Shown piece by piece: positions 49,871 to 56,231 of a DNA stretch of 57,917 bases. The translations under genes and the position numbers were made by a program. Location: IMG/VR virus record IMGVR_UViG_3300043409_000324, positions 1 to 57,917 of that record, one strand, 5' to 3'. The stretch comes from a virus (taxonomy: Duplodnaviria; Caudoviricetes). Below the pieces are notes generated by a model, which saw nothing but the letters and a program-made list of their open reading frames with translations, had not been told where the DNA came from and ran no database searches. Within the stretch, counting starts at the first letter, position 1; each line of letters opens with the position of its first letter.

Positions 49871-49916
49871 GATGTTTCCTTAAGAAAAGTGAATGAGTGT
49901 CAGCAACTGACGCTTA

Positions 49917-54326: not shown

Positions 54327-54337
54327 TGTGTTTCCTT

Positions 54338-54424
54338 TCAGGAAAGCTTAGTTAATAACCAAAACTTTACAGCGACAAATGCTGCAAAGCAGAGCACACC
54401 TATTACATATTCCATGTCATTCAT
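54338..54424 (-). CDS. 28-aa single-TM peptide
   Basis: Not in ORF track. MNDMEYVIGVLCFAAFVAVKFWLLTKLS; GGAG upstream; stop codon lies inside the next RBS hairpin. Confidence 0.5.
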   Translation of the reverse strand: MNDMEYVIGVLCFAAFVAVKFWLLTKLS

Positions 54425-54668: not shown

Positions 54669-54859
54669 GTTGTTTCCTTTAGGAAGTTCAATGTGGGTTG
54701 CTTCAAAGTTACTAAGTAACCAAGCGAAGCAATGTCAATCATCACTTTGTGAGTGAGGGTTTTAGTCCCTGCAATGGAAGCAAAAAGCTTTGCTTTGTTA
54801 CATACAGGGTAGACTTGTTCTACTCCGTAGACGTTTCTAATTTCAACTATCATTTCCAT
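54665..54859 (-). CDS. conserved phage protein (VYG...YP.C..A..FA.IAGTKTLT family)
   Basis: 64 aa, palindromic RBS element upstream. Confidence 0.7.
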   Translation of the reverse strand: MEMIVEIRNVYGVEQVYPVCNKAKLFASIAGTKTLTHKVMIDIASLGYLVTLKQPTLNFLKETT

Positions 54860-54870
54860 GTTGTTTCCTT

Positions 54871-55083
54871 TCAGGAAGTTGCTTCAACCAGTGCATTTTC
54901 ACTGTCGATAGTGACAGCATCAAACACCTGTTGCTTCGTGCCTTTGTAACCCATCCCTTTAAGAATTGCATAGCAAGTCTTACCTTTAGAGGTGAGTCGC
55001 ATACCTTTCATCTCCAGTTTAAGACCTTGTCTTAAGCAACGAAGACGATAAGCATTGATTTGTTCCGGTGTAGTTAATACCAT
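54871..55083 (-). CDS. hypothetical protein (LKLEMKGM family)
   Basis: 70 aa, palindromic RBS element upstream. Confidence 0.7.
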   Translation of the reverse strand: MVLTTPEQINAYRLRCLRQGLKLEMKGMRLTSKGKTCYAILKGMGYKGTKQQVFDAVTIDSENALVEATS

Positions 55084-55122
55084 TTTGTTTCCTTTAGGAA
55101 AAGCGAAGCGACTTTGCTTCTG

Positions 55123-55319
55123 TTAAGACTTGTCTTAGCCCTAACAGAAACCCACTGTCTAGCACCGACCCCAGTGCCACAATGGAATTGTCTCTCATAT
55201 ACATTATCAACATGATGTATTAGCATGTCCTGTACATTTACCCTGTACAGACTGGGCTGATCCATAGTGATGATGCATACCTTGCTAATAGCATGCACCC
55301 TCACCGACTTCAGTCTTAA
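55123..55319 (-). ncRNA. candidate structured RNA with pseudoknot
   Basis: Closing helix TTAAGACT/AGTCTTAA, several internal hairpins, 8-nt loop complementarity; G-U pairs favour the minus strand. Confidence 0.45.
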
Positions 55320-55352
55320 TTTTTAAAGAACATTCGTTTGAAGCTTTGCTTC
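55318..55352 (-). promoter_or_regulatory. boxA-like antitermination element with upstream hairpin
   Basis: Minus strand GAAGC-aaa-GCTTC ... TGTTCTTTAAAAATT, compared with rrn boxA TGCTCTTTAACAATT. Confidence 0.5.
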
Positions 55353-55438
55353 ACAGCAGGGCTTCACCCTATAGAGAACGCTAGATAACATTCTGCAAAG
55401 CCCTAAGGCTTTACGCAAGGCTATCAAATAAGCTCTGC

Positions 55439-56155
55439 TTATACAACAAATCCTGTCGTATCAAGCTTCGCTTTACCTTTAGCATACAGTCCGACAATGA
55501 CTTTGTCATCAAGGTGACGAACATCAGAGTTGTCTCCAGAGACAACAGGGATTCCCATAAAGCTTTGGGGAATGTCTTGTTCCTTTCGGAACACTACCGC
55601 CATTCTCATGTTGTTTAACAAAGCATTTTCGACATAAGGCTGAAAGCCTTCCACACCGGAATAGGAAAATGTCAGGTCATAGTTACTTGGTAACTCAGTG
55701 CGGTTTCCTCTCTTAGTGTAGTCATAGAATTGAATCTCAGGAAAAGCAGCAAATATGTTTACATATTCAATGCCATCAGTGTCAGTAAAAGCTACGCTTT
55801 CCCACCGAATGTCACTAGTACCATTCAATCTGACTAAAGGCTTTAAGCCTTGCTTGTTAGCCTTCTTGATAAGCTTAGCAATATCAACAACAAGTTGTTG
55901 CATGAAGCTGTTTCGCTCAGTGAAAAACCATGTGGTTTTATTGATCCTAGCTTGCTGAACAGAGCTGAAAGCTCCACGACCTGCAGTGTTGAGGCAAGCC
56001 ACATCACATTGAGCCTTTTTAGCCATTGGACAAGTGTTCCACTTGGTAGTGTTTGCCGGAGCTAGATAGAGAATGCCAGTTAAGAAACCTAAGGTTTCAC
56101 CCTTGATAGTTTTGGCATCGGACGATACAGAAAGCAGAGCTTTAGACTTGAACAT
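55439..56155 (-). CDS. GP88-like protein (Cys cluster)
   Basis: Start re-called at MFKSKALL; TCPM....CDVACL, RLNGTSDI, FYDYTK motifs; family name recalled from memory. Confidence 0.7.
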   Translation of the reverse strand: MFKSKALLSVSSDAKTIKGETLGFLTGILYLAPANTTKWNTCPMAKKAQCDVACLNTAGRGAFSSVQQARINKTTWFFTERNSFMQQLVVDIAKLIKKANKQGLKPLVRLNGTSDIRWESVAFTDTDGIEYVNIFAAFPEIQFYDYTKRGNRTELPSNYDLTFSYSGVEGFQPYVENALLNNMRMAVVFRKEQDIPQSFMGIPVVSGDNSDVRHLDDKVIVGLYAKGKAKLDTTGFVV

Positions 56156-56202
56156 TGTGTTTCCTTTAGGAAAGTTGTGGCAACATTGCCGTTGAGGTTT
56201 CA

Positions 56203-56231
56203 ATTGTAGCGGTATCCAATAACCCTGTCAA
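56203..56231 (-). promoter_or_regulatory. strong sigma70 early promoter
   Basis: TTGACA-N17-TACAAT. Confidence 0.8.

What the first reader, a model, noticed from the sequence alone, without database searches (positions are those of the whole stretch)
55105..55319. Pseudoknotted ~200-nt RNA in the early transcript with mutually exclusive 3' helices
Seen on the minus strand: closing stem TTAAGACT/AGTCTTAA; hairpin GGTGCATGC/GTATGCATC (two G-U pairs) whose loop TATTAGCA is complementary to downstream TGCTAATA; further stems CTGTACA/TGTACAG, CCATTGT/ACAGTGG and GCACTG/CGGTGC. An alternative helix TTCTGTTAG/TTAACAGAA competes with the closing stem just before the RBS hairpin. I do not recognise the family. 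Inference: a new ncRNA, riboswitch-like element, ribozyme or RNA decoy.
Basis: partly seen in the sequence, partly recalled or inferred. Interest (0 to 1): 0.7.

Follow-up and report, generated by a model that had tools for sequence, protein, structure and literature searches.

The report
Conserved double-pseudoknot RNA in phage
A stretch of about 320 bases between two early genes of an uncultured freshwater phage folds into a conserved RNA with about ten helices and two pseudoknots that matches no catalogued RNA family, so it is a good candidate for a new regulatory or catalytic RNA whose job is still unknown.

Summary
The whole minus-strand intergenic region 55084-55438 is a conserved structured RNA with no Rfam match. 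It lies between a GP88-family gene and a 70-aa gene in a complete 57.9-kb HMO-2011-type phage record.

I collected 74 distinct copies from viral and metagenome contigs and none from 185,579 prokaryote genomes. In 70 of 70 testable copies the element directly follows GP88. The gene after it varies.

Covariation supports four 5' hairpins (Ha-Hd) and a core of P1-P6. The 76-aa ORF is open in 1 of 74 copies.

Contigs from three RNA libraries bridge the element to both flanking genes, and a conserved sigma-70-like promoter precedes GP88. The element therefore sits inside an early polycistronic transcript.

My best reading is a cis-acting, operon-level control RNA, perhaps put/EAR-like antitermination. 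The mechanism is inferred, not shown. A trans-acting ncRNA, a riboswitch or a ribozyme remain open.

The parts
55084..55438 (-). Whole intergenic region between the GP88 stop and the start of the 70-aa gene. It is conserved and structured throughout.
   Evidence: Fifteen-sequence mean pairwise identity is 0.829, against 0.745 and 0.771 at third codon positions of the flanking genes.
55395..55414 (-). Ha: GC-rich hairpin GUAAAGCC/GGCUUUGC with a variable tip. It looks like a terminator but is followed by only three U.
   Evidence: 97.3% paired, 3 of 6 pairs changed on both sides. (25 distinct versions; 72 of 74 fold to one hairpin).
55375..55394 (-). Hb: hairpin AGAAUGU/GCGUUCU.
   Evidence: 98.4% paired.
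55347..55369 (-). Hc (GGG/CCC) and Hd (UGCU-GUGA-AGCA, a GNRA-type tetraloop hairpin).
   Evidence: In Hd the pair 97-108 is UA 42 / CG 24, and the pair 100-105 has one CG exchange.
55319..55329 (-). Nearly invariant single-stranded UCUUUAAAAAU at the 5' edge of the core.
   Evidence: invariant columns. It occurs once in the window with no mismatch.
55257..55313 (-). P1 (CUGAA 55313-55309 with AUCAG 55261-55257), plus the invariant UC/GG extension. It encloses P2.
   Evidence: 99.0% paired, and 5 of 5 pairs changed on both sides.
55266..55305 (-). P2: variable-length hairpin.
   Evidence: 30 distinct versions, 74 of 74 form one hairpin. (81.3% paired on the sequence-only alignment).
55241..55256 (-). 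Pseudoknot 1: CCC 55256-55254 pairs with GGG 55243-55241 in the P3 loop.
   Evidence: 98.3% paired. Third pair CG 25 / UA 23 / UG 11; middle pair CG 54 / UA 5; at least 16 changes of pair state on a tree.
55229..55251 (-). P3: UCUGUACA/UGUACAGG.
   Evidence: 99.5% paired, 5 of 5 counted pairs changed on both sides.
55210..55228 (-). Pseudoknot 2: ACAUG 55228-55224 pairs with CAUGU 55214-55210 in the P4 loop.
   Evidence: Found by a mutual-information scan; 100% paired. Outer pair AU 41 / GC 18 / CG 11 / UG 3 / GU 1; inner pair GC 73 / CG 1; at least 13 changes of pair state.
55199..55220 (-). P4: AUACAU/AUGUAU with the invariant loop CAUGNUGAUA.
   Evidence: 100% paired, 3 of 6 pairs changed on both sides.
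55146..55195 (-). P5: long helix made of AGAGA/UUUCU, then UCCAUUGU/ACAGUGGG, then GGCAC/GUGCU, with the invariant loop UGGGGUCG (55173-55166).
   Evidence: 96.7% and 98.6% paired; 5 pairs changed on both sides.
55122..55145 (-). P6: variable hairpin.
   Evidence: 5 inner pairs changed on both sides. (35 distinct versions, 74 of 74 form one hairpin).
55086..55120 (-). Not part of the fold: a small hairpin GAAGC/GCUUC with a U-rich tail, present only in some copies, followed by the shared ribosome-binding cassette UUCCUAAAGGAAACA.
   Evidence: terminator-like site 55120-55105. (the cassette stands before six early genes).
55439..56155 (-). GP88-family gene (PF17338). It is the constant upstream neighbour.
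   Evidence: E = 2.1e-44. (70 of 70 testable copies).
56203..56231 (-). Sigma-70-like promoter TTGACA-17-TACAAT upstream of GP88.
   Evidence: 11 of 12 matches. (both hexamers kept in 13 of 14 relatives while the spacer varies).
54871..55083 (-). 70-aa gene, the usual but not constant downstream neighbour.
   Evidence: this type in 50 of 73 copies.

Best explanation
What it is (high confidence): a conserved, non-coding, highly structured RNA domain read from the minus strand. It has four 5' hairpins (Ha-Hd) and a core of about 190 nt. The core consists of P1/P2, P3 with pseudoknot 1, P4 with pseudoknot 2, a long P5 capped by the invariant loop UGGGGUCG, and a variable P6. It lies inside the early polycistronic transcript that starts at a sigma-70-like promoter in front of the GP88 gene.

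How it most likely works (inferred, not shown): it acts in cis at the level of the operon, not on one particular gene. Once transcribed, the folded RNA would bind a fixed partner through its invariant loops and junctions. The partner I favour is the elongating host RNA polymerase, as with HK022 put RNA or the Bacillus EAR element. Binding would set how much transcription or expression passes from the first early gene into the variable block of small early genes behind it.

Shown: the structure, its conservation, its fixed place after GP88, that it does not code, and that it occurs in RNA libraries joined to both neighbours. Inferred: that it acts in cis, its partner, and its effect on termination.
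For: Structure:
- 98.6% of cells are paired in P4-P5, against 26-55% when partners are slid; 8 pairs change on both sides.
- 90.1% are paired in P1-P3 plus pseudoknot 1, with 22 pairs changed on both sides.
- 97.8% are paired in Ha-Hd.
- 99.8% are paired in P3, pseudoknot 2 and P4.
- Many G-U pairs, such as 48 of 48 at one P5b pair, fit only the minus-strand transcript.

Non-coding: the ORF is open in 1 of 74 copies.

Selection: intergenic identity is 0.829, against 0.745-0.771 at third codon positions.

Place in the operon:
- GP88 lies just upstream on the same strand in 70 of 70 testable copies.
- The first ORF downstream is the 70-aa type in 50 of 73 copies. The other 23 show at least 8 other N-terminal types, judged by eye.
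- In 68 of 73 copies the next start codon lies 10-28 nt past the aligned element.
- I saw no conserved promoter or U-tract terminator of the element's own. A conserved promoter stands before GP88.
- Terminator-like sites lie downstream at 55120-55105 and 54390-54364.

Expression: RNA-library contigs from three studies cover the element. One runs from GP88 into it (55158-55475). One runs from it into the 70-aa gene (55016-55329).

Precedent: put RNA is described as a cis-element that suppresses pausing and termination in phage early genes (PMC9378689, listing and start of abstract only).
Against: - No experiment or read-level data show a transcript end, a partner or any effect on termination.
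- Contigs from RNA libraries can contain DNA and cannot show a single transcript.
- The terminator-like Ha lies upstream of the core, not downstream.
- The downstream terminator-like hairpin at 55120-55105 is absent from the copies whose ribosome-binding cassette follows AAGCAA directly.
- From recall, put and EAR are much smaller than this element, and no sequence or structure likeness to them was found.
- Phages with GP88 at 63% identity or less lack the element. So do the two closest deposited phage records. The early-operon design therefore does not need it.
- A fold this elaborate, with two pseudoknots and many invariant unpaired bases, is equally typical of ligand-binding or catalytic RNAs.
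Confidence: 0.4

Rival explanations
1. A stable trans-acting non-coding RNA. It would be cut out of the early transcript and work as part of a ribonucleoprotein, or as a decoy or sponge for a host protein such as a defence factor, a nuclease or an RNA chaperone, or as a partner of GP88.
For: It has a compact fold with two pseudoknots and invariant loops (UGGGGUCG, CAUGNUGAUA), which suggests a specific binding surface. It is strictly linked to GP88 (70 of 70) and independent of the downstream gene. The peripheral hairpins P2 and P6 vary freely in length, as in many RNP RNAs.
Against: I saw no conserved promoter or terminator of its own. RNA-library contigs run on into both neighbouring genes. 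More distant GP88 genes have no such RNA, either next to them or elsewhere in 5 nearly complete records (0 of 5, a search without a positive control). GP88's fold hints at a radical-SAM-like enzyme, not a known RNA-binding protein (Z only 5.5-6.8).
Confidence: 0.25
2. A riboswitch-like sensor. The core would be an aptamer for a metabolite or ion, and would control transcription or translation of whatever gene follows.
For: It has a complex conserved junction-and-pseudoknot architecture with invariant unpaired nucleotides. It sits 10-28 nt before the next start codon in 68 of 73 copies. In part of the family UUUCU can pair either with AGAGA (outer P5) or with AGAA after P6, in 42-60 of 74 copies. 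A small terminator-like hairpin follows in some copies.
Against: The downstream gene is not constant and none has a recognisable metabolic function. No expression platform is shared by all copies. No known aptamer class matches.
Confidence: 0.12
3. A new self-cleaving ribozyme that cuts the early transcript between GP88 and the following genes.
For: Double-pseudoknot folds with highly conserved cores are typical of small self-cleaving ribozymes (general knowledge, recalled). The position is intergenic in a phage operon. Invariant nucleotides cluster at junctions.
Against: There is no likeness to any ribozyme model in Rfam 15. RNA-library contigs span large parts of the element, 55016-55329 and 55158-55475, though uncleaved molecules or DNA could explain that. 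Nothing marks a cleavage site.
Confidence: 0.08
4. A passive structural spacer. It would be a set of hairpins that only stabilises the mRNA, offers RNase III/E processing sites, or shields a long untranslated gap from Rho, with no specific partner.
For: The whole 355 nt is a row of hairpins. Ha looks like a weak terminator.
Against: A passive role does not explain the two covarying pseudoknots. It does not explain invariant loop and junction sequences kept over 74 copies while helix sequences change. It does not explain conservation above synonymous sites.
Confidence: 0.1
5. It codes for the 76-aa protein (55074-55304, minus strand), or it is a DNA-level site such as an origin or an internal promoter.
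For: The ORF is open in the window. A weak promoter-like match, AGGACA-17-GATAAT, lies at 55231-55203 (9 of 12), and its GATAAT part is invariant.
Against: The ORF is open in 1 of 74 copies, and the start codon is lost in 26 of 74. Indels are not in threes. G-U pairs and strand-specific covariation point to RNA. The -35-like hexamer is not kept in other clades.
Confidence: 0.03

Closest known systems
HK022 put RNA (phage cis-acting antitermination RNA)
   Same: Both are structured RNAs encoded in a phage early operon downstream of an early promoter. Put is said to act alone, in cis, to suppress pausing and termination (PMC9378689, listing and start of abstract). Like putR and nutR (recalled), this element sits after the first gene of the operon.
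   Different: Put is a pair of stem-loops of roughly 70 nt (recalled). This element has about ten helices and two pseudoknots in roughly 190-320 nt. No sequence or structure likeness was found, and no effect on RNA polymerase was tested.
EAR (eps-associated RNA) and the conAn antitermination system of conjugative elements
   Same: Both are structured RNAs inside operons, between genes, that promote read-through of later terminators. For EAR this is recalled. For conAn I saw PMC8191782, listing and start of abstract only.
   Different: They come from other hosts (Gram-positive bacteria and their conjugative elements). No Rfam match to any such family was found. ConAn needs a protein partner. 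Membership here is not supported.
Orphan structured RNA motifs predicted in phage and viral metagenomes (Weinberg et al. 2017, PMC5737381; Fremin et al. 2023, PMC10690425)
   Same: The kind of evidence is the same: an intergenic element, covariation, metagenome-derived phages, unknown function. Fremin et al. mined IMG/VR, the collection this window comes from, and report 8,495 candidates averaging 67 bases (passages read).
   Different: 'GP88' and 'PF17338' do not occur in the main text of PMC10690425 (0 occurrences). This element is far longer than their average and has two pseudoknots.
Small double-pseudoknot ribozymes and riboswitch aptamers
   Same: A compact core in which junction strands pair with hairpin loops, with invariant unpaired nucleotides and freely variable peripheral hairpins.
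   Different: No covariance model of any such class matches. No cleavage site, ligand or conserved expression platform is known.

Membership tests
Any Rfam 15 family | Match to the family's covariance model at its gathering score | tested here: not met
   There are 0 matches in the whole window. With relaxed filters on 54900-55600, 4 matches appear at E 0.62-9.2, all far below gathering. Seven diverse homologous loci show no match at the element at E <= 1.
tRNA / tmRNA | Cloverleaf or tmRNA recognised by ARAGORN | tested here: not met
   0 genes in the window.
Protein-coding gene (76-aa ORF) | Reading frame kept open in relatives | tested here: not met
   The frame is open for 60 or more codons in 1 of 74 copies, the window itself. 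The start codon is kept in 48 of 74.
Riboswitch | Conserved, complex aptamer fold | tested here: met
   Multi-helix core with two covarying pseudoknots. This feature is not specific to riboswitches.
Riboswitch | Consistent association with downstream genes of one pathway or transport function | tested here: not met
   The first ORF downstream is the 70-aa type in 50 of 73 copies, and the rest show at least 8 other types. The window's own first two downstream ORFs have no Pfam family.
Riboswitch | Expression platform (alternative terminator or RBS-sequestering helix) shared by the family | tested here: inconclusive
   The UUUCU alternative pairing occurs in 42-60 of 74 copies. The small terminator-like hairpin is present only in part of the family.
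Riboswitch | Ligand binding | not testable with these tools
   Needs in-line probing or similar.
put/EAR-type processive antitermination RNA | Lies in the transcript downstream of the operon's promoter and upstream of terminators | tested here: met
   A conserved promoter-like site stands before GP88. Terminator-like sites lie at 55120-55105 and 54390-54364 (consensus matches only).
put/EAR-type processive antitermination RNA | Sequence or structure likeness to put or EAR | tested here: not met
   No Rfam match of any kind. The architecture differs: two pseudoknots and about ten helices. The put and EAR structures themselves are recalled, not fetched.
put/EAR-type processive antitermination RNA | Increases terminator read-through in cis | not testable with these tools
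   Needs in-vitro transcription or reporters.
Self-cleaving ribozyme | Site-specific self-scission | not testable with these tools
   Contigs cannot show RNA ends.
Intrinsic terminator (for hairpin Ha) | GC-rich hairpin directly followed by a U-tract | tested here: not met
   The hairpin is present and covaries, but only CUUUGC follows, with three U. The terminator scan does not list it.
Radical SAM superfamily (for the neighbour GP88) | Partial TIM-barrel fold with a three-cysteine cluster near the N-terminus | tested here: inconclusive
   The model has pLDDT 86.9. Nineteen of the top 19 VIA-align hits are radical SAM enzymes, but at Z only 5.5-6.8. Foldseek finds nothing at E <= 0.001. Three cysteines are invariant, spaced Cx7Cx3C rather than the canonical CX3CX2C (the canonical motif is recalled).

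The most novel reading that the evidence does not exclude
The core (about 55122-55329, minus strand) is a new class of functional RNA with activity of its own. It would be either a self-cleaving ribozyme, or a protein-independent RNA that reprograms the host RNA polymerase or senses a ligand. It would be carried by a lineage of abundant freshwater HMO-2011-type phages next to a radical-SAM-like gene.
Probability: 0.25. Interest if true: 0.85.

Novelty: new variant of a known kind. Interest (0 to 1): 0.62.

Why it matters
Large phage RNAs with well-supported complex folds are rare. Those studied so far have opened new biology, such as put RNA and the large ornate RNAs.

This element has 74 natural variants, two covarying pseudoknots and clearly dispensable peripheral hairpins. 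That gives a ready-made design for a minimal construct for probing, cleavage assays, transcription assays or structure determination.

It also marks the entry to a variable block of small early genes that are joined through a repeated ribosome-binding cassette. It may therefore bear on how these uncultured, widespread phages time early gene expression.

Tried and rejected
- Closing stem: present in the window but 51-59% paired across 74 copies, no better than shuffles.
- Pseudoknot TATTAGCA/TGCTAATA: only the invariant AGCA/UGCU remains, and the loop is missing in 20 of 74 copies. A role in the subfamily that has the long P2 is not excluded. One A-to-G change gives 8 extra G-C pairs.

My own rejected ideas:
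- A helix UGCU with the 3' AGCA of AAGCAA. I dropped it because GAAGCAA recurs before other ribosome-binding cassettes and genome-wide (31 found against 12.6 expected).
- Pairing of column 215 with 240. I rejected it in favour of 215-239 and 240-258, because two copies break 215-240 but none breaks 240-258.
- An internal promoter AGGACA-17-GATAAT. The -35 part is not conserved.

Searches that found nothing:
- blastn of the region against 50,697 phage records.
- A motif scan of one genome for each of 185,579 prokaryote species.
- Model R1 on 50 loci with more distant GP88 or gp70 relatives: only the window matched.
- R1 on 5 nearly complete records with distant GP88: 0 of 5, without a positive control in that call.
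- R1 on Limnohabitans phage DC31 and MW202701.1: best E = 0.73.
- GP88 against PDB sequences: 0 hits.
- 'GP88' or 'PF17338' in the paper library: only unrelated uses among the 15 of 225 papers listed.

Other:
- Depth and uncovered parts in the RNA-library contigs cannot be interpreted.
- Tree-based counts of co-changes probably overcount, because these phages recombine and the paired columns lie 11-18 nt apart.

Full report
**Setting.** The window is a complete 57,917-bp virus record. It is a tailed phage. Its large terminase is 64-78% identical to those of Puniceispirillum phage HMO-2011 and Roseobacter CRP phages. It has structural genes on the plus strand and an early/replication block on the minus strand. 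That block holds a family A DNA polymerase, a primase-helicase, ribonucleotide reductase, ThyX, an integrase and an ADP-ribosylglycohydrolase.

The finding lies near the start of the minus-strand block. It sits in the 355-nt gap (55084-55438) between a GP88-family gene (PF17338, E = 2.1e-44) and a 70-aa gene.

The 215-nt stretch folds with z = -5.5 (0 of 200 shuffles as stable). The whole gap folds with z = -6.8 (0 of 100). Rfam 15 gives no match at gathering score anywhere in the window. Relaxed filters give only four chance-level hits at E 0.62-9.2. ARAGORN finds no tRNA or tmRNA.

**Relatives.**
- The two flanking proteins recovered 80 and 36 loci from IMG/VR.
- A 22-nt invariant motif recovered 39 IMG/VR stretches.
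- A two-part motif recovered 55 metagenome stretches and none in one genome for each of 185,579 prokaryote species.
- After removing duplicates there are 74 distinct full-length copies and 13 partial ones.
- No deposited phage record has the element by blastn.
- The two closest records by GP88, Limnohabitans phage DC31 (65.7%) and MW202701.1 (62.8%), give no significant match to a covariance model of P4-P5 (best E = 0.73).

**Structure.** I used sequence-only MAFFT alignments, so the counts are not fitted to the structure.
- P4 and P5 are 98.6% paired over 48 distinct sequences. Slid partners give 26-55%. Eight pairs change on both sides.
- P1, P2, P3 and pseudoknot 1 are 90.1% paired over 60 distinct sequences, with 22 pairs changed on both sides. 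P1 has 5 of 5 such pairs and P3 has 6 of 7.
- The four upstream hairpins Ha-Hd are 97.8% paired over 74 sequences, with 8 such pairs.
- P2 and P6 are replaceable hairpins, with 30 and 35 distinct versions. Every one of the 74 copies folds to a single hairpin at each place.
- Frequent G-U pairs fit only the minus-strand transcript.

Pseudoknot 1 pairs the three bases after P1 (CCC, 55256-55254) with GGG in the P3 loop (55243-55241).
- It is 98.3% paired. The third pair is CG 25 / UA 23 / UG 11, and the middle pair is CG 54 / UA 5.
- The single unpaired row, L175, is shifted by one column. By eye it reads CGU/ACG, a further exchange.

Pseudoknot 2 came from a mutual-information scan. It pairs NCAUG (55228-55224) with CAUGN at the start of the P4 loop (55214-55210).
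- All 74 copies pair. The outer pair is AU 41 / GC 18 / CG 11 / UG 3 / GU 1.
- One copy (L145) exchanges the otherwise invariant inner G-C for C-G.
- This explains why CAUGCU and AUCAUGNUGAUAAU are nearly invariant.

I built a tree from the other columns. On it the two variable pseudoknot pairs change state at least 16 and 13 times. Recombination probably inflates these counts.

**What falls.** In P6 only the inner five pairs covary. The UUCU/AGAA part pairs in 42-60 of 74 copies, whereas UUUCU pairs with the upstream AGAGA in 96.7% of cells.

**Boundaries and context.**
- The 3' end of the fold is P6.
- Behind it comes the cassette UUCCUNAAGGAAACA-NN-AUG, which precedes six early genes of this phage.
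- GP88 lies directly upstream on the same strand in 70 of 70 copies with enough sequence.
- The first ORF downstream is the 70-aa type in 50 of 73 copies. Otherwise it is one of at least 8 other types, judged by eye from the N-termini found by a simple ORF finder.
- GP88 genes at 63% identity or less have no match to the model. In 30 of 35 such loci the next ORF starts within 100 nt.
- The promoter-like site TTGACA-17-TACAAT precedes GP88. It keeps both hexamers in 13 of 14 relatives while the spacer varies.
- The gap is more conserved (0.829) than third codon positions of either neighbour (0.745 and 0.771; 15 sequences).

**Expression.** Nine runs on record as RNA hold part of the stretch. 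I laid four of them at 85% likeness. Contigs from three studies cover the element:
- one from GP88 into it (55158-55475),
- one from it into the 70-aa gene (55016-55329),
- one inside it (55152-55308).

These are contigs. They cannot show ends, strand or level, and DNA carry-over is possible.

**Interpretation.** The RNA is non-coding and under selection for a specific three-dimensional fold. It is embedded in the early transcript, tied to its position after GP88, and indifferent to what follows.

That fits a cis-acting, operon-level element best. I favour a put/EAR-like action on the elongating polymerase. Terminator-like sites downstream are compatible with this. However, no sequence or structure likeness to those RNAs was found, and the mechanism is inference.

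A processed trans-acting RNA, a ligand sensor and a self-cleaving ribozyme all remain compatible with the fold. A purely passive spacer is unlikely, given the covarying pseudoknots and the invariant loops.

**The neighbour.** A model of GP88 (pLDDT 86.9) aligns best to radical SAM enzymes. These include PFL-activating enzyme, QueE, NifB and viperin, at Z 5.5-6.8. Three cysteines are invariant in 28 homologs. Foldseek finds nothing at E <= 0.001. This is a lead, not a membership.

**Novelty.** No Rfam family matches. The main text of the IMG/VR-wide survey PMC10690425 does not mention GP88. Its supplementary candidate lists could not be seen, so partial overlap with one of its short candidates is possible.

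Noticed in passing
window 56158-56172, 55086-55100, 54862-54876, 54671-54685, 54329-54343, 49873-49887 (minus strand): A repeated ribosome-binding cassette, UUCCU(A/G)AAGGAAACA-NN-AUG, precedes six early genes and could form a small hairpin over the Shine-Dalgarno bases. In relatives, different small genes are joined to the RNA element through the same cassette. RNA-library contigs join 56155 directly to 54327 (runs X2 and X4, table 5c). The cassettes may therefore be recombination points for shuffling early genes.
   Followed up: partly
window 55439-56155 (minus strand): The GP88 family (PF17338, no known function) models as a partial barrel whose best structural neighbours are radical SAM enzymes (Z 5.5-6.8). 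It has three invariant cysteines spaced Cx7Cx3C.
   Followed up: partly
window 56203-56231 (minus strand): A sigma-70-like promoter, TTGACA-17-TACAAT, is conserved in relatives. A hairpin (CCCUGUGAUUGACAGGG) overlaps its -35 hexamer.
   Followed up: partly
L032:3745-4360, L033:3727-4345, L034:3727-4135: Downstream of GP88 genes about 63% identical to the window's, there is a strong terminator and then 400-600 nt without ORFs. This stretch holds a unit of about 250 nt repeated twice (GGCCGUGGUAUAAAAACAACACACAGGGUA...). It is unrelated to the element studied here.
   Followed up: no
L213:3224-4041 (Limnohabitans phage DC31, PQ492658.1): An 818-nt stretch without annotated genes follows the GP88 homolog. 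It has no significant match to model R1.
   Followed up: partly
L024:2616-2779, L105:1164-1252, L160:420-496: Long near-perfect hairpins upstream of GP88 give weak two-strand hits to microRNA and plastid 3'UTR models in Rfam. They are probably just long inverted repeats.
   Followed up: no
window 54698-55352 (minus strand) and genome-wide: The heptamer GAAGCAA occurs 31 times against 12.6 expected, with seven copies (five on the minus strand, two on the plus) in the 650 nt around the element. Three of them stand just upstream of ribosome-binding cassettes.
   Followed up: no
window 54364-54390 (minus strand): A terminator-like hairpin (10 pairs, then UUUGGUUAUU) lies inside the early gene block, just upstream of the L5 gp82-like gene.
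   Followed up: no
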